A stretch of DNA of 64,000 nucleotides. Source: Ignavibacteriota bacterium (lineage in GTDB: Bacteria > Bacteroidota > Ignavibacteria > UBA10030 > UBA6906). The position numbers and the translations under genes were made by a program. The notes beneath the pieces were generated by a model. That model was not told the DNA's origin. It made no database searches and worked only from the letters and a program-made list of their open reading frames with translations. Location: the NCBI GenBank assembly GCA_963801355.1, contig CAWDEM010000004.1:32001-96000 (forward strand). The letters run 5' to 3'. Shown here one piece after another: positions 1,386 to 7,183 of this stretch (position 1 is its first letter; every line of letters begins with the position of its first letter).

Positions 1386-2105
1386 ATGGAAATGCACCAT
1401 ACGCAAGCCCCCGAATACTTCGGCCGGGACCTTGAAGCAATGTGGTTCGCACGGAACTACTATGCATGGGTATTCGACGAATTCCGGCCCTTCCTGGGGA
1501 AGAACGTGGGGGAAGTGGGAGCTGGGTCAGGAACCTTTGCGGACTTCGTTCTCAAGGCCGGGGTAAGTACCCTTGTCGCGTTTGAACCATCTGCAAATAT
1601 GTTTCCGCTTCTCCAACAAAGGCTCTCCCGGTGTCATGCAGCACTTGCGGTGCAAGGTTTTCTTGAGACACACGCACGGGCCTATAGGGAAGCTTTCGAT
1701 TCAATCTTGTACGTCAATGTCCTGGAACATGTGGAATACGACGCGCAAGAACTCAGCATTGCCAGAACAACTCTGCAGCCAAATGGTTACCTCCTAGCTC
1801 TTGTTCCTGCCCAACCTTGGCTCTATAGCGACTTCGACCGGCACGTGGGCCATTTCAGGCGCTACACCAAAAGGGGCCTGAGAAAACTGGTGGAATGCAA
1901 TGGTTTTTCGATCGTTGAGCTAAAGCACTTCGATGTAGCCGGGATTATACCGTGGTATGTTGCGTATGTTCTGCTGAAACGCACTTTGACTAGTGGAAAT
2001 GTTTCCGCATACGACTCGATCATTGTGCCGGTCATGCGAAGAATCGAGCAGCTCGTGCCACCACCGATAGGGAAAAGTCTCATCCTCATTGCGAGGAAGA
2101 TCTGA
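1386..2105 (+). CDS. Class I SAM-dependent methyltransferase
   Basis: EVGAGSG motif I, 'NVLEHVE', 'VPA...YSDFDRHVGHFRRY', typical of glycan-cluster methyltransferases. Confidence 0.85.
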   Translation: MEMHHTQAPEYFGRDLEAMWFARNYYAWVFDEFRPFLGKNVGEVGAGSGTFADFVLKAGVSTLVAFEPSANMFPLLQQRLSRCHAALAVQGFLETHARAYREAFDSILYVNVLEHVEYDAQELSIARTTLQPNGYLLALVPAQPWLYSDFDRHVGHFRRYTKRGLRKLVECNGFSIVELKHFDVAGIIPWYVAYVLLKRTLTSGNVSAYDSIIVPVMRRIEQLVPPPIGKSLILIARKI

Positions 2106-2185
2106 GCAGAGGTGACGGCCATAAATCCGCCCGATACGCAGTCCTATTTCCGCCATCCAAACCAGGAAAATGGAGAATAGGTCCT

Positions 2186-2899
2186 ATGCTTCTTTCTGTG
2201 ATAGTCCCAGTTTACAACGAACAAGATCATGTGGACCAACTTCTTCAAAGGGTCACCGCGGTTGATCTGCAGCCGCTAGGGCTCTCGATGGAAATCATTG
2301 TCGTGGATGATTGCTCGACTGACAGGACTCCCTATGTTCTCAAGAACTGGAAAGACCGGGGTTCGATCATTCTTCTTAAACACTCAAAGAACCGGGGGAA
2401 GGGGGCGGCACTTCGCACGGGCTTTGGCCATGCAAAAGGGGAGATTGTTCTTGTCCAAGATTCCGACCTCGAGTATGATCCAAATGAGTACACAAAGTTG
2501 CTCAATCCAATAGTGCAGGGGAATGCAGACGTTGTATTCGGTTCCCGGTTCATGGGAGGAGAGGCTCACCGTGTACTTTTCTTCTGGCACTCCGTCGGCA
2601 ACAAGTTTCTCACGCTTCTCTCCAATGTCTTCACCAACCTCAACCTCACAGATATGGAGGTGTGCTATAAAGTCTTTCGGTCGGAAGTTGTACGTCAGAT
2701 TGACATAAAGGAAAAGGGGTTTGGATTCGAGCCTGAAATCACCGCGAAATGTGCGAAGCTGGCCAGGAAAAAGGGAATCCGCATCTTTGAGGTAGGTATT
2801 TCGTACAGCGGGAGAACCTATGCAGAAGGCAAGAAAATTGGCTGGAAGGACGGGTTCCATACACTCTGGTGCATCCTGAGGTATAATCTGGCTTCGTAA
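2186..2899 (+). CDS. GT2 glycosyltransferase (polyprenol-phosphate sugar synthase, DPM1-like)
   Basis: LSVIVPVYNE, VDDCSTD, NRGKGAAL, QDSDLEYDP, GRTYAEGKKIGWKDG. Confidence 0.92.
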   Translation: MLLSVIVPVYNEQDHVDQLLQRVTAVDLQPLGLSMEIIVVDDCSTDRTPYVLKNWKDRGSIILLKHSKNRGKGAALRTGFGHAKGEIVLVQDSDLEYDPNEYTKLLNPIVQGNADVVFGSRFMGGEAHRVLFFWHSVGNKFLTLLSNVFTNLNLTDMEVCYKVFRSEVVRQIDIKEKGFGFEPEITAKCAKLARKKGIRIFEVGISYSGRTYAEGKKIGWKDGFHTLWCILRYNLAS

Positions 2900-2953
2900 A
2901 GCCCCGATCAGAGCCTAAGATGCTCGGACAAGATATTCCTGCGTGTGATACAC

Positions 2954-2978
2954 TCGAAGTGGTGAAATTGGCAGACAC
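2954..2978 (+). other. tRNA-Leu-like 5' fragment (acceptor-stem 5' side plus D-arm only), not a complete tRNA
   Basis: TCGAAGTGGTGAAATTGGCAGACAC resembles the bacterial tRNA-Leu 5' end (GCCGAAGTGGYGRAATTGGYAGACRC). No anticodon arm or TTCGA T-loop follows. Confidence 0.45.
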
Positions 2979-3104
2979 AAGAACTAACACTGAATTTGGA
3001 CCCACGATGGGGGTAAGTACCCATAGCAATTCCACAAACTAATTCTTCGATCATCTTTCAGGGTGTCATCTTTAAAAAGGACAAAGTCAAGAGGGTAAGA
3101 TCTC

Positions 3105-3400
3105 CCGGGGCGAACTTTTCACGAAGAGTTCGCCATGATTCAGTGTAGTTGCGACTTTGACGAGTGTGCCACATGCCACGAGCCGTTCGATTCTCGTTCC
3201 CCGAGGCGCCAACGGCGGCCAGGCATCTTTCGGGGCTTATCAGTGATCCTTACAAAACAGATCACTGCATCGCACACGTTAGGTGCGACCATCCCAGAGG
3301 TTTTCATCGGCACAACACCCGACTTCCCAATCAGGTCAGCGGCCTCGCAAATGCGCGTGCCAGCCCCCACGCCCGGGCTTGTCGGGTGTGGCCGTGGCGC
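3105..3400 (-). ncRNA. Candidate bridge RNA / seekRNA in the IS 3' non-coding end
   Basis: Multiple hairpins (3308-3323 with 3381-3394; 3270-3288; 3241-3267; 3199-3204 with 3230-3235; 3109-3134). 3330-3339 is identical to the target flank 4600-4609, and 3224-3230 is identical to the element end 3067-3073. Confidence 0.65.
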
Positions 3401-3489
3401 TCCAAACAGACTCCCACTACGCTTCTCTCGGCCAGGTTGCCGACGAAGATGATAGATTTTCGGTGAGACGATCTGCGGAGCAAACTGCG

Positions 3490-4515
3490 CCTGGCGTGGC
3501 CAGGCACATGATTTCTGGCGACTGACGGGCTTGCCCTTGAAGCCTCGAAAGACTTCCTTGTCCTTGAGTATGTGATAGACGATTCGCGCAAGTTCTTTGG
3601 CAACGACTGTATGCGCGATGGCCTTGTTGGAACGTCAGAGGATCTTCTGGTAGAAGGCCCTGATCTCCGGGTAGTACCGCTTTGGCATGGACTGCAGCAT
3701 CGGTGAATGCAATCTTCAGGTATCTGTTCCCGTCTTTGCTCCCGGACTTCTGTCGACTCGACCGATTAGAGTTTTTTGCTCCGGGCACAAGGCGAGCAGT
3801 ACGAGAAGAAGTGTTTCTCGTCGGGAAGCGCTCGATCTGATCGATCTCCAGATACACCGAAAGAGCAGTGAGAAGCCCGACGGCCGGAACCCAGAGGAGG
3901 CGTTGAATGTCTTCGTTCGCGAATCAGTTCGGGACGAATCGTTTGCTCGAGCTCTTTGATCTGACGGTTGAAAGGCTGAATCTTGGTCCGTGTGCCACCG
4001 CATCTGGATCTTGTAGGGCTGCGGTAGATGATCGGGAGAAACACCGTCTTTCGGGTCGATTGCCGCTATTGAATTTCTCTCCGATCCGATGGATGGAGTT
4101 CTTTGAGGAGGTCCTCCTCTGGATGAGCCGGAGTCGAGTACGCATCGTGTCTCGGAGGCCCCGAAGTTCGGGACGGATCTTATGTGCCTGGGGAATGAAG
4201 TCCATGCGGAGAAGTTGCGCCAAGGTGCAGGAGTCCACCTTGTCGGTCTTCACCTTCGCATAGGCGATCGCCTTGATATATTTGGCATGAGCAAGCACAA
4301 GCTCAATCCCGTGTGCTTCCAGATAGATCGCTCAACCAGTACCAGTTGGCTGTCGATTCCACGACTGCCCGGTGGGGTCCGGGAAGGCCATGAAAGTAGT
4401 CGAGGATCAGGGCCGGTTCGTTCCGCATCCTTGCTCTCTTGACCACTGCTCCTGCATCATTGACTGTCGTGAGAAAGCAGTTGTCTTTATGGTCGTCGAT
4501 TCCTGTGCAGTACAT
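3490..4515 (-). pseudogene. IS110-family DEDD recombinase/transposase, multiply frameshifted with an in-frame TGA
   Basis: Fragments MYCTGIDDHK...AVVESTANW, KVKTDKVD, YLEIDQIERFP, LVPGAKNS...KDGNRYLK, VAKELARIVYHIL...WPR. Frameshifts at ~4322 and several in 3680-4060. TGA at ~3635-3637 (QKIL*RSN). Confidence 0.9.
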
Positions 4516-4879
4516 GTGGACCTTCTGAGATTGTGGTTGAACGATGCCTCCTTTCCATGTCGTGCAATGTGCATACTCGGGAGGTTCCTTTTTGGCAACA
4601 TCAGGTCAGTTCGAGGATTGAAGAAATGTAGGATCTGCGTATGTACAGAGATTGGTGACAGATGCAGTTCTTTCTCTGCAAAGGGGCCTTGAATCCGTAG
4701 TTATGGTAATAATTCTCAAGATCACGAACGGAGAGGATGAACTATTTGTGGTTTTCTGCTTTTACTTCTGTATATTATGAAGAGTGGTACGAAGAATGCT
4801 TGTACTGCAATTCTAGAGAGAGCAGGACAAAGAAGTATGGTGCAGTTGATAGCAGTCAAGTGATGTAAGGAGAGAAGAG

Positions 4880-7183
4880 ATGAGACAACGTACAGTTGTT
4901 TTTCCAGCACTTGTTCTGATCCTTGTTATGACACGTGGTGCACAAGGTCAGGTAATCAATCACAATCACACAGACTTCAATTCGATTCCTGTTCGCTATC
5001 TTGATCAAGCTCGCTCTCAGTTACATTTTATACTCGAGGGTGCATCACACTCAACTCAAATACCCGTTGGTTTAGCAGCATTAGCAGGATGGGATAGTAA
5101 GTTTTCTGTTCCGGCGAGTATGATTCGTAGTGATGTGGGTGATAATGTGACTTTAGGTACCGGCAATCATGGACAGACTCTAAATTTTCATGAGTGGGCA
5201 ACGCTTGTACGGGGGGTTCTCAAAACTCCCGGCAATGGCATAAATGCTGTTTTATGGATGTGGTGTGGAGAACTGATTGAGAATCCTATAGATTCTGTTA
5301 ATGTATATTTGAGTTTGATCGGTCAACTTGAAACAGACTATCCATCTGTAAAGTTTGTGTATGCAACTCAGCACACATGGGGAAAGGGACCAGGTGATTT
5401 ACTCACTACAAATAATGCTGCTATTCGCAATTATTGCATTGCAAATGGAAAGATGCTCTATGATTTTGAAGATATTGAATGCTACGATCCAGATGGGTTA
5501 GTAAACTACCTACAGTATCATGTGGACGATTTCTGTGACTACTACGCTCCTACTAAACATAACTGGGCAGACGAGTGGATTGCTGCAAATCCTTCATCAT
5601 ATCTTACTGCCATAGCAAGAACGATATGTGATGGTTGCTGTGCTCATTCAAAAGGACTGAATTGTGTACAAAAAGGTGGTGCATTCTGGTGGTTGGCTGC
5701 ACGATTAGCTGGATGGGATGGCACGACAGGAACAGTTGGTGCACCGGGAAGTGTAATTCTGGTCGTCCCCGCTGACAACGTAACAGGTCAGGGGGTCAAC
5801 CCCACGTTACGCTGGCTTTCCACTGCCGATGCGACATCCTACTGGCTCCAGGCCGGCACCAGCAGCAGCTTCACCTCCGGCATTGTCTTCTCCGACTCCA
5901 CTCTTACCGAAACCGCAAAGTCCTTGAGTGGCCTGTCGAACGACACGAAGTACTATTGGCACGTCCGGGCCAAGAACGCCAGCGGTGCCGGGGCATTCTC
6001 CCCAACCTGGTCCTTCACCACAACCGGGGGAAGCCCTGCCGCAACGGTGCTGCGCATTCCGGCAGACAACGCAACAAATCAGGGGCTCACTCCTGCGTTG
6101 TTCTGGCTTCGCACTCCCGGTGCGACATCCTACTGGCTCCAGGCCGGCACCAGTAGCACCTTCACCTCCGGCATTGTCTTCTCCGACTCCACCCTTACTG
6201 ACACCGTGAAGTCCTTGAACGGCCTCTCAAACAACACGAAGTACTACTGGCACGTCCGTGCCAAGAACGCCAGTGGCGCTGGCGCATTTTCCCCAACCTG
6301 GTCCTTCACGACAATAGCTCCCGTTCCCCCCGTGATTACGCTGATAGCGCCTTTGAACAATGCGAGCGTCTCAAGCGACAGCATCAAGTGTGTTTGGCGA
6401 ATCTCCCCATCATGGTGGGACTGGTTTGAAATCTCAACGGATTCCTTGTTTGTCTCTTCGTCGTCTATCGACTCCGCGCTCACCGACACAACAAAAGTGG
6501 TTCGCAACCTTCGCAACAACACGCCGTATTACTGGCGTGTGCGCGGCGGGAATCTTGCAGGTTGGGGACCATTCTCCCTAACCTGGACCTTCACCACGAC
6601 CGGCTCTGTTCCCGGAGTGATTCCGCTGATAACGCCCGTCAACAACGCAAGCGTTTCAAGTGACACTGTCAAATGTGTTTGGGGAGCCTCCCCCTCCTCG
6701 TGGGACTGGTTTGAGATCTCAACGGATTCCTTGTTTGTCTCTTCGACGTCAGTCGATTCCGCGGTGATGAGCTGCACGAAAGTGGTTCGCAACCTGCGCG
6801 ACAACACGCTGTACTACTGGCGTGTGCGCGGAGGGAATCTTACAGGTTGGGGACCGTTCAGCGAACGGCGTAGTTTCAAGGTGTCATATACTGCGGTACG
6901 CGATCAGTACGGTATCCCCCCCACCTTCGCGCTGAACCAGAACTACCCGAATCCGTTCAACCCATCGACGCAGATCGCCTTCGACATCCCCAGGGAAACC
7001 CGCGTGAAGCTCGAGGTGTATAATGTTCTCGGGGCACGGGTGCTGACGTTGGAGGACCGCATCATGTCCGCCGGGTATCACAGCGCTACAGTGCAGGCCG
7101 GCTCCCTTCCGAGCGGGCTCTACCTGTACCGCTTGACAACCCCGGAAGCCTCACTCACCCGGAAGATGTTGCTTATGAAATAA
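4880..7183 (+). CDS. Secreted protein: uncharacterised (possibly SGNH-like) N-terminal domain, 4 fibronectin type III-like repeats, T9SS C-terminal sorting domain
   Basis: Sec signal (..TRGAQG/Q). N-domain 'GASHSTQI...CAHS...WWLAARLAGWDG'. Repeats ending YYWHVRAKN / YYWRVRGGN...WSFTT. Tail LNQNYPNPFNPST...GLYLYRL...TRKMLLMK. Confidence 0.85.
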   Translation: MRQRTVVFPALVLILVMTRGAQGQVINHNHTDFNSIPVRYLDQARSQLHFILEGASHSTQIPVGLAALAGWDSKFSVPASMIRSDVGDNVTLGTGNHGQTLNFHEWATLVRGVLKTPGNGINAVLWMWCGELIENPIDSVNVYLSLIGQLETDYPSVKFVYATQHTWGKGPGDLLTTNNAAIRNYCIANGKMLYDFEDIECYDPDGLVNYLQYHVDDFCDYYAPTKHNWADEWIAANPSSYLTAIARTICDGCCAHSKGLNCVQKGGAFWWLAARLAGWDGTTGTVGAPGSVILVVPADNVTGQGVNPTLRWLSTADATSYWLQAGTSSSFTSGIVFSDSTLTETAKSLSGLSNDTKYYWHVRAKNASGAGAFSPTWSFTTTGGSPAATVLRIPADNATNQGLTPALFWLRTPGATSYWLQAGTSSTFTSGIVFSDSTLTDTVKSLNGLSNNTKYYWHVRAKNASGAGAFSPTWSFTTIAPVPPVITLIAPLNNASVSSDSIKCVWRISPSWWDWFEISTDSLFVSSSSIDSALTDTTKVVRNLRNNTPYYWRVRGGNLAGWGPFSLTWTFTTTGSVPGVIPLITPVNNASVSSDTVKCVWGASPSSWDWFEISTDSLFVSSTSVDSAVMSCTKVVRNLRDNTLYYWRVRGGNLTGWGPFSERRSFKVSYTAVRDQYGIPPTFALNQNYPNPFNPSTQIAFDIPRETRVKLEVYNVLGARVLTLEDRIMSAGYHSATVQAGSLPSGLYLYRLTTPEASLTRKMLLMK
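5760..6885 (+). repeat. Two pairs of intragenic tandem FN3 repeats (291-bp and 285-bp periods)
   Basis: GCGACATCCTACTGGCTCCAGGCCGGCACC at 5831 and 6122; TGGGACTGGTTTGA at 6416 and 6701. Confidence 0.9.

What the first reader, a model, noticed from the sequence alone, without database searches (positions are those of the whole stretch)
3105..3400. Candidate bridge/seek RNA whose guide matches this element's own insertion site
Seen, on the minus strand: the reconstructed pre-insertion target is ...gaaCTGACCT-GATG-ACACCCtg... The 3' non-coding end contains CTGACCTGAT (plus 3330-3339), identical to left flank plus core (plus 4600-4609). A specific 10-mer is expected by chance in ~400 nt with probability of roughly 4e-4. 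It sits inside a loop closed by a long stem (3308-3323 with 3381-3394). There are two right-target guide candidates. GGGTGTTGT (3312-3320) pairs with ATGACACCC with two wobbles, but lies in the stem. GGGCGT (3369-3374) has one mismatch and lies on the opposite side of the loop. A second stem-loop (3199-3235) carries AAAGATG, identical to the donor junction (3067-3073); this 7-mer is weaker evidence, and no clear right-donor guide was found. Established: IS110/IS1111 recombinases are guided by a non-coding RNA (bridge RNA/seekRNA) that base-pairs with target and donor, and in IS1111-type elements it lies downstream of the ORF. Inference: a programmable RNA-guided recombinase locus with an apparent GATG core, possibly an uncharacterised subfamily.
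Basis: partly seen in the sequence, partly recalled or inferred. Interest (0 to 1): 0.85.

Follow-up and report, generated by a model that had tools for sequence, protein, structure and literature searches.

The report
Decayed insertion sequence with bridge RNA
This is the dead remnant of an IS110/IS1111-type jumping gene whose built-in guide RNA still spells out the left half of its own insertion site; the mechanism has been known since 2024, so it is a clear but ordinary new example.

Summary
CTGACCTGAT occurs twice in the window, at 3330-3339 and 4600-4609, both on the minus strand.

The region is a 1,533-nt IS110-family element of IS1111 layout on the minus strand (4601..3069). It has an 86-nt left end, a frameshifted transposase and a ~440-nt 3' non-coding region.

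In 22 related copies from other genomes, this position of the non-coding region always repeats that copy's own left flank, a 2-nt core and AT/AA. A segment about 30 nt upstream is the reverse complement of the right flank. Two further segments match the element's own ends. The closing stem shows compensatory changes.

So the 10-mer is the left target guide (CTGACC) plus core (TG) plus two nucleotides of the left end.

- The core is TG, not GATG; unoccupied sites in relatives show this.
- Neither proposed right-target guide is correct. The homologous one, CGUGGGGGC at 3363-3371, fits this copy's right flank poorly.
- A right donor guide exists at 3297-3304.
- The transposase is a pseudogene and the element is single-copy here.

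This is a new member of a known kind, from a divergent clade labelled Ignavibacteriota/Calditrichia. No RNA evidence was obtained.

The parts
4604..4609 (-). Left target flank (LT) CTGACC, outside the element
   Evidence: Homology to the G031a copy includes it, but flanks further out differ. In relatives, copies of one element carry different LT (L040 vs L041).
4602..4603 (-). Core dinucleotide TG, left copy
   Evidence: Only TG/GG is shared by the left and right junctions across relatives. Unoccupied sites hold one copy.
3069..4601 (-). Element body, 1,533 nt (left end starts ATGTTGCC; right end finishes TTTTTAAAGA)
   Evidence: Alignment of ends with 21 related copies. 86% identical over its full length to the G031a copy.
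3509..4515 (-). IS110-family (DEDD) transposase pseudogene. Frame changes occur near codons 64 and 280. A garbled stretch runs from about codon 150 to 195. There are two in-frame stops.
   Evidence: Pfam PF01548 and PF02371 on fragments. tblastn with the intact G033 protein gives three frames and two stops.
4578..4593 (-). Left subterminal inverted repeat (AAAAAGGA 4593-4586 and CTCCCG 4583-4578)
   Evidence: Exact reverse-complement matches to the right end. Conserved in relatives.
3309..3393 (-). Target-binding loop domain. The outer stem pairs 3393-3381 with 3323-3309. The inner stem pairs CCCG 3377-3374 with UGGG 3329-3326. Between them lies an internal loop with both target guides and a variable hairpin.
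   Evidence: 7 of 13 outer pairs are compensatory and 97.5% of cells pair. [quoted passage not shown]
3363..3371 (-). Right target guide (RTG) CGUGGGGGC. It expects G|CCCCCACG.
   Evidence: The homologous segment is the reverse complement of the right flank in 21 of 22 copies (>=5 nt exact). It matches the G031a flank CCCCCA but matches the window flank ACACCC at only 3 of 6.
3330..3339 (-). The finding's 10-mer: left target guide CUGACC (3339-3334) + core UG (3333-3332) + AU (3331-3330, equal to the first 2 nt of the left end; handshake-like)
   Evidence: Identical to 4609-4600. The homologous segment tracks the left flank in relatives.
3297..3304 (-). Right donor guide (RDG) AAAACCUC, followed by the conserved UGGG at 3296-3293
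   Evidence: The homologous segment is the reverse complement of core-G + left-end start for 3-8 nt in relatives. In the window 5 of 8 pair.
3222..3230 (-). Left donor guide AAAGA (3230-3226) + core UG (3225-3224) + handshake-like CC (3223-3222), followed by UGG and a hairpin
   Evidence: All 19 distinct rows repeat their own right end + core. In 16 of 19 the match runs 2 nt into the right flank. In the window CC faces AC.
3109..3134 (-). Conserved-position hairpin (GGCGAAC..GUUCGCC) just before the right inverted repeat
   Evidence: the repeat finder I15, 12-nt arms, 92% complementary. Relatives have a hairpin of different sequence at the same place (reading).
3074..3107 (-). Right subterminal inverted repeat (CGGGAG 3107-3102, UCCUUUUU 3081-3074), enclosing TTGACT at 3090-3085
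   Evidence: TTGAC is conserved in relatives. The idea that it acts as a -35 box of a circle-junction promoter is inference.
3067..3068 (-). Core dinucleotide TG, right copy
3061..3066 (-). Right target flank (RT) ACACCC
   Evidence: Homology with G031a stops at ..AAAGATG.

Best explanation
Window 4601..3069 (minus strand) is a decayed copy of an IS110-family insertion sequence with the IS1111 layout. It has a short left end, a DEDD transposase gene, a long 3' non-coding region and subterminal inverted repeats.

The non-coding region encodes a bridge RNA (seekRNA). Its target-binding loop is closed by the stem 3393-3381/3323-3309 and carries two guides:
- About 30 nt further 3', a left target guide (CUGACC, 3339-3334), followed by the 2-nt core UG and by AU, which equals the first two bases of the left end.

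A second module carries two more guides:
- A right donor guide (3304-3297).
- A left donor guide AAAGA + UG + CC (3230-3222).

By homology with IS621 and IS1111-family elements, the RNA bound to the transposase would pair with both strands of target and donor around the TG core. It would then direct insertion of the circularised element at CTGACC-TG-(C-rich) sites.

Shown here: the sequence anatomy, the guide-flank and guide-end covariation, the stem covariation, the 2-nt core and the gene decay.

Inferred: that an RNA is made, that it binds the transposase, and the chemistry.

In this genome the element is a fossil, with a broken transposase, a single copy and a poor right-flank match.
For: FAMILY
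- PF01548 and PF02371 hit the ORF fragments.
- An intact 350-aa relative scores 174 bits against NF033542, whose cut-off is 140.

LAYOUT
- The left non-coding end is 86 nt and the right is about 440 nt.
- Subterminal inverted repeats of 8 + 6 nt are present.

LEFT TARGET GUIDE
- The 10-mer is identical to left flank + core + AT.
- In 22 copies with 13 distinct guide pairs, the 6 nt 5' of the core match the copy's own left flank at a mean of 3.8 of 6. 14 of 22 copies score >=4.
- Foreign flanks give a mean of 1.8 of 6, and 26 of 344 comparisons score >=4.

RIGHT TARGET GUIDE
- 21 of 22 copies have an exact reverse-complement match of >=5 nt to their own right flank.
- Only 1 of 176 foreign comparisons does.

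DONOR GUIDES
- All 19 distinct rows repeat their own right end + core. Five different end/core types are each matched.
- 16 of 19 extend 2 nt into the right flank.

STRUCTURE AND SITES
- Stem: 7 of 13 pairs are compensatory.
- A second, independent insertion with the same guides (G031a) lies at CTGACC-TG-CCCCCA. It matches both guides.
- At least 9 unoccupied paralogous sites in relatives hold a single TG/GG.

PUBLISHED FRAMEWORK
- Durrant 2024, PMC11208160 (passages): guide definitions, and the bridge RNA lies in the right end of IS1111 elements.
- Siddiquee 2024, PMC11187229 (sections 6, 9, 13): the non-coding region is downstream, and the top-strand match lies 5' of the bottom-strand match, as here.
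- Hiraizumi 2024, PMC11208158 (passages): handshake guides.
Against: - There is no evidence that any RNA is made. The only RNA run that held words of the stretch covered a short conserved transposase motif from other organisms.
- No Rfam family matches.
- No sigma-70-like promoter lies upstream of the loop.
- The minimum-free-energy fold of the 404-nt region is no better than shuffles (z = -0.93).
- This copy's right flank matches its right target guide at 3 of 6 positions, and its handshake CC faces AC. So 'matches its own insertion site' holds for the left half only.
- Some relatives also match poorly on the left: G031b and L051 at 1 of 6.
- The 22 copies are kin, so the own-versus-foreign contrast overstates independence.
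- Phylogenetic placement within IS1111 versus IS110 was not tested.
- The conserved motif reads RL-P----SN, not the published GL-P----S(t)G.
Confidence: 0.88

Rival explanations
1. The internal copies of the junction sequences act at the DNA level, not through an RNA. They might be subterminal transposase-binding repeats, or single-stranded DNA guides as in IS200/IS605.
For: No transcript was shown and no promoter was found upstream. The covariation itself cannot tell DNA from RNA.
Against: - The closing stem keeps pairing through G-U intermediates and compensatory changes, as expected for a folded RNA.
- The protein family is the one for which RNA guidance was shown experimentally (NF033542; PMC11208160 and PMC11187229).
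- Guide order and syntax equal the published IS1111 seekRNA order.
Confidence: 0.05
2. The locus is still a working programmable recombinase system in this genome. Either the gene is read through its breaks, or the RNA serves another transposase in trans.
For: - The guide region is nearly unchanged between the window and G031a although the elements are only 86% identical overall (reading).
- The genome holds another open IS110-like frame of 368 aa at G000:C4:864555-865466.
Against: - There are three frame changes and two in-frame stops relative to the intact relative.
- The element is single-copy in a 100%-complete genome.
- The other IS110-like gene shares no detectable DNA similarity with this element and scores below the family cut-off (125 vs 140 bits).
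- The closest copy, G031a, is also frameshifted.
Confidence: 0.04
3. The 10-mer identity is a chance repeat with no role.
For: A 10-mer can recur. The same 10-mer occurs 12 times in the genome.
Against: - It occurs twice in the window against an expected 0.19.
- The homologous position changes with the flank in relatives, which chance does not predict.
Confidence: 0.01

Closest known systems
IS1111-group elements with a 3'-encoded seekRNA/bridge RNA (ISEc11, ISPa11, ISKpn4, ISPst6; Siddiquee et al. 2024, PMC11187229; Durrant et al. 2024, PMC11208160)
   Same: - DEDD transposase followed by a long non-coding region.
- Subterminal inverted repeats.
- Site-specific insertion.
- The RNA segment complementary to the top strand lies 5' of the one complementary to the bottom strand.
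- Relatives target palindromic repeated sequences.
   Different: - At most 34% protein identity to any plasmid-borne IS110-family gene found.
- The motif is RL-P----SN instead of GL-P----S(t)G.
- The core is TG or GG.
- Hosts are labelled Ignavibacteriota, Calditrichia, Gemmatimonadota and Bacteroidetes.
- No experiment has been done.
- This copy is dead.
IS621 bridge RNA system (IS110 group; Durrant 2024; Hiraizumi 2024, PMC11208158)
   Same: - Four guides (LTG, RTG, LDG, RDG) around a 2-nt core.
- A target loop closed by a stem.
- Two extra nucleotides after the core that match the other DNA partner (handshake-like).
- A -35-like box near the right end that could form a junction promoter (inference).
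   Different: - The RNA lies downstream of the gene, in the right end.
- Guide order is reversed.
- The handshake-like nucleotides follow the LTG and LDG (the bottom-strand binders), not the RTG and RDG. If the DNA is viewed rotated by 180 degrees this is the IS621 arrangement (inference).
- The core is TG/GG, not CT.
- The RTG pairs with only the second core base.
- The only sequence hit to a solved structure was weak (ISCro4 transposase, E = 0.0016).
ISGsu4-like IS110-family transposases (annotation on the best plasmid hits)
   Same: Full-length alignment over 92% of the protein.
   Different: About 33% identity only. Their RNA and ends were not examined here.

Membership tests
IS110 family (RNA-guided DEDD transposases) | N-terminal DEDD/RuvC-like domain (PF01548) and C-terminal PF02371 domain | tested here: met
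   - Window fragments: PF01548 at E = 2.2e-7 and PF02371 at E = 1.6e-6.
- Intact relative: both domains, and NF033542 at 174 bits against a cut-off of 140.
- The window gene read through its breaks scores only 75 bits.
IS110 family (RNA-guided DEDD transposases) | Conserved serine in a G--P----SG-type motif | tested here: inconclusive
   The motif reads RLVPGAKNSN in the window, G031a, G033, L039 and L043. L, P and S are kept, but the residue after S is N, not G. Catalytic competence is not testable here.
IS1111 group | Longer non-coding region downstream of the transposase gene | tested here: met
   86 nt upstream against about 440 nt downstream. The same holds in relatives.
IS1111 group | Subterminal inverted repeats of 7-17 bp | tested here: met
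   AAAAAGGA/TCCTTTTT (8 bp, offsets 9 and 6 from the ends) plus CTCCCG/CGGGAG. Conserved in relatives.
IS1111 group | seekRNA with the top-strand match 5' of the bottom-strand match, both overlapping at the insertion point | tested here: met
   The RTG (3371-3363) lies 5' of the LTG (3339-3334). Covariation with flanks was found in 22 copies. The published order is given in PMC11187229, section 9.
IS1111 group | Transposase clusters with IS1111 in a phylogeny | not tested
   No reference IS1111 or ISfinder sequences were available in the tools. The best named hit is ISGsu4-like at about 33% identity.
Bridge RNA / seekRNA | The RNA is transcribed, binds the transposase and is required for recombination | not testable with these tools
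   The only RNA run found gave no cover of the non-coding region. There is no Rfam model.
Bridge RNA / seekRNA | Donor-binding guides matching the element's own ends | tested here: met
   LDG + core matches in 19 of 19 distinct rows, across five end/core types. The RDG matches 3-8 nt.

The most novel reading that the evidence does not exclude
The window copy belongs to an undescribed clade of IS1111-like bridge recombinases found in records labelled Ignavibacteriota, Calditrichia, Gemmatimonadota and Bacteroidetes. Its distinctive features would be:
- An NG core (TG or GG).
- A fixed syntax in which each of the four guides is followed by a UG(G) anchor.
- Handshake-like dinucleotides on the bottom-strand guides.
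- An S-N instead of S-G catalytic motif.

Naturally intact members, such as the four copies in G033, would be new programmable recombinases with a different core preference. The poor right-flank fit of the window copy and of L118 would point to loose right-target requirements, or to insertion directed in trans by a variant RNA.
Probability: 0.3. Interest if true: 0.45.

Novelty: new member of a known kind. Interest (0 to 1): 0.3.

Why it matters
- It shows that a tool-less reading of raw sequence can recover a bridge-RNA guide.
- It gives a fully annotated example (four guides, core, stems, inverted repeats) from a poorly sampled bacterial lineage.
- Intact relatives could widen the set of bridge recombinases with non-CT cores.
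- For the biology of this genome it matters little. The element is a single, dead, intergenic copy.

Tried and rejected
- Rfam scan of 2500-5200 at E <= 1: 0 matches.
- Single-sequence fold of 3067-3470: z = -0.93, uninformative.
- Unoccupied site for this copy. Both flanks were searched in 4 same-genus genomes (93-97% complete), with 0 of 4 matching each. So the pre-insertion sequence of this site was not seen directly.
- Predicted full target in the own genome: 0 exact and 1 one-mismatch site. It is not a repeat family here.
- tRNA scan of 2500-5200: none.
- Expression. One metatranscriptome run held 4% of the words. Laid, it covered only 4197-4310, at 85-95% likeness, with pieces that continue into unlike sequence. 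That is a conserved transposase motif of other organisms, and it says nothing about the non-coding region.
- Sigma-70 scan: no promoter-like site on the minus strand upstream of the loop.
- The local stem 3235-3230/3204-3199 around AAAGATG is possible in the window. However, the CCC before the left donor guide instead covaries with the GGR after the right donor guide: 15 of 15 rows pair, 10 as G-C and 5 as A-U.
- The repeat finder did not list the short subterminal repeats among its 25 longest. They were found by direct comparison.
- Metagenome locus L120 holds the 20-mer in an unrelated context and was treated as a chance match.

Rows dropped before the counts:
- L046: no loop found by my pattern.
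- L047 and L058: right end not found.
- L098: no left end in the locus.
- A second left-end-like hit in L041.
- The two G052 copies, whose guides and flanks repeat rows already in the table.
- L117-L119, which are incomplete.

Supplementary files of the three papers were not seen. They may already list this clade or its RNA models.

Full report
WHAT IS THERE

On the minus strand, window 4601..3069 is a 1,533-nt mobile element. Its parts, in order, are:
- An 86-nt left end.
- A transposase gene starting at 4515.
- About 440 nt of non-coding sequence ending in ..CCTTTTTAAAGA.

The gene is in pieces. The ORF fragments hit PF01548 (DEDD_Tnp_IS110) and PF02371. Compared with an intact 350-aa relative, the reading frame changes near codons 64 and 280. 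The stretch from about codon 150 to 195 is garbled, and there are two in-frame stops.

The element occurs once in its genome, which is 4.8 Mb and 100% complete.

THE OBSERVATION

CTGACCTGAT is at 3330-3339 and 4600-4609. These are the only two matches in the window, against 0.19 expected. The genome holds 12 copies in all. The stem 3381-3393/3309-3323 and the AAAGATG at 3224-3230 are also as described.

RELATIVES

A DNA search of 61 genomes (G000 plus 60 relatives) matched in 11, counting G000 itself. Among them:
- A full-length copy at 86% identity in G031 (G031a).
- Four copies within 14 kb in G033.
- Copies in G052.
- A second, divergent copy in G031 (G031b).

A protein-seeded scan of genome contigs gave 79 loci. 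A covariance model of the loop (R1) matched 19 of these, always just downstream of the transposase gene. The records are titled Ignavibacteriota, Ignavibacteriae, Calditrichia/Calditrichaceae, Gemmatimonadota and Bacteroidetes.

Homology between the window and G031a starts at AACTGACCTGATG.. and ends at ..AAAGATG. Beyond that the flanks are unrelated.

BOUNDARIES AND CORE

Aligning the ends of all copies gives three regularities:
- The left end always begins AT.TT....A.AAAGG.
- The right end always finishes ..TT(T/A)(T/A)(T/A)AAA plus two variable bases.
- Only two bases, TG or GG, are common to both junctions.

Relatives that target a repeated sequence give the direct test. At least 9 unoccupied copies of that sequence read ..GCCGCT-TG-TTAGGC.. 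or ..CT-GG-TTAGGC.., with a single dinucleotide. Occupied ones read ..GCCGCT-TG-[element]-TG-TTAGGC...

Hence the core is 2 nt. The window's apparent GATG duplication is a coincidence of register.

In G031a, removing the element and one TG joins two open frames in phase (and my count of positions).

GUIDES

For 22 copies (13 distinct guide pairs) I extracted flanks, ends and the loop.

Left target guide:
- The 6 nt before the core in the 3' half of the loop equal the copy's own left flank at a mean of 3.8 of 6. 14 of 22 copies score >=4, and the window and G031a score 6 of 6.
- Against flanks of copies with different guides the mean is 1.8 of 6, and 26 of 344 comparisons score >=4.

Right target guide:
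- The 5' half of the loop holds an exact reverse-complement match of >=5 nt to the copy's own right flank in 21 of 22 copies.
- Only 1 of 176 foreign comparisons reaches that.

Examples of covarying right flank and guide:

| Copy | Right flank | Guide |
|---|---|---|
| G031a | CCCCCA | UGGGGG |
| G033 | TTAGGCG | CGCCUAA |
| L055 | TTAGAA | UUCUAA |
| G031b | GTCCCGAA | UUCGGGAC |
| L043 | ACCACC | GGUGGU |

Donor module:
- About 160-200 nt from the right end, every one of 19 distinct rows repeats its own right end plus core. The five types seen are AAAGA-TG, AAAGG-TG, AAAAT-GG, AAACT-GG and AAAGT-GG.
- In 16 of 19 rows the match continues for 2 nt into the right flank.
- A segment just 5' of a conserved UGG is the reverse complement of core-G plus the start of the left end, for 3-8 nt.

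These 22 copies are kin, so the numbers describe a pattern and are not independent trials.

STRUCTURE

The outer stem keeps pairing in 97.5% of 119 cells, with 7 of 13 pairs changed on both sides. Slid controls pair at 32-44%.

A short stem joins the GGR after the right donor guide to the YCC before the left donor guide. It pairs in 15 of 15 rows, 10 as G-C and 5 as A-U.

READING

This matches the published architecture.
- Durrant et al. 2024 (passages read) define LTG, RTG, LDG and RDG around a core dinucleotide. They place the bridge RNA of IS1111-group elements in the long right end, next to subterminal inverted repeats.
- Siddiquee et al. 2024 (sections 6, 9 and 13 read) show that IS1111 seekRNAs carry the top-strand match 5' of the bottom-strand match, as here.
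- Hiraizumi et al. 2024 (passages read) describe handshake guides after the core.

The window has:
- The inverted repeats AAAAAGGA/TCCTTTTT and CTCCCG/CGGGAG.
- TTGACT 16 nt from the right end. This could serve as the -35 box of a circle-junction promoter (inference).

The 10-mer is therefore LTG (CUGACC) + core (UG) + two bases equal to the left-end start.

Here the two extra bases follow the bottom-strand-binding guides. Viewed with the DNA rotated by 180 degrees, this is the IS621 arrangement (inference).

WHERE THIS COPY DEPARTS

The window's RTG, CGUGGGGGC, expects G|CCCCCACG. That is what G031a has. The window's flank is G|ACACCC, 3 of 6, and the handshake CC faces AC.

A metagenome scan with the 20-mer around the LTG found three more relatives with the same LTG but different RTGs (L117-L119) and one unrelated hit. 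L118 shows the same pattern as the window: flank ACCCCC, handshake CC.

Three explanations remain open:
- The right half tolerates mismatches.
- The A after the core is bulged, which would give 4 of 5 in the window.
- Insertion was directed in trans by a variant RNA.

I cannot decide between them.

STATUS AND NOVELTY

No RNA evidence could be obtained. Rfam has no matching family.

The protein clade is at most 34% identical to plasmid-borne IS110-family genes. The best named hit is ISGsu4-like. The only sequence hit to a solved structure is weak: ISCro4 transposase, E = 0.0016.

The kind of system is known. This is a new, dead member from a divergent clade whose intact relatives could be tested.

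Noticed in passing
window 3050-3059 (minus strand): GAAAGATGAT lies 8 nt beyond the right end. It repeats the predicted circle junction (right end AAAGA + TG + left end AT). My rough chance estimate is about 0.01. It could be a pseudo-donor site or a coincidence.
   Followed up: partly
L032 (G033), L040, L041, L049, L035, L045, L055, L008, L017: Most relatives insert into a repeated sequence, ..CCGTCAGCT(T/C)(G/C)AGC..CT(G/T)G|TTAGGCG.., at the centre of a short palindrome (GCGCC..GGCGC). Both occupied and unoccupied copies occur in the same contigs. G033 has four element copies within 14 kb. The nature of this repeat is unknown.
   Followed up: partly
G000:C8:~12085 (outside the window): The window's own genome has one unoccupied site resembling that repeat (..CGTCAGCAGCCGCCGCTGGTTAGGCGGC..), although it has no element of that type.
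   Followed up: no
G000:C4:864555-865466 and C8:1891050-1891541 (outside the window): There is another IS110-family-like open frame of 368 aa (125 bits, below the 140-bit cut-off) and a fragment with a stop. Neither is related at the DNA level to the window element.
   Followed up: no
window 3109-3134 (minus strand): A strong hairpin lies just before the right inverted repeat. Relatives have a hairpin of different sequence at the same place. It is possibly the 3' end of the RNA or a protein-binding site.
   Followed up: partly
window ~3790-3770 (minus strand); G031a, G033, L039, L043: The motif around the presumed catalytic serine reads RLVPGAKNSN (S-N), whereas the published IS1111 consensus is GL-P----S(t)G.
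   Followed up: partly
window 3290-3400 vs L003 2700-2820: The target-loop region is almost identical between the window and G031a, although the elements are 86% identical overall and both transposase genes are broken at different places.
   Followed up: partly
L118 (metagenome contig), right junction: This is a second copy with the same left guide. Its right flank also begins with an A not predicted by its guide or handshake (ACCCCC vs expected CC..). Its donor guide reads TA where the core should be TG.
   Followed up: partly
window 1386-2899 and 4880-7183: The element sits between a methyltransferase-like/glycosyltransferase-like gene pair and a large secreted repeat protein. That protein's C-terminus looks like a type IX secretion sorting domain (my recollection of the motif, not tested).
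   Followed up: no
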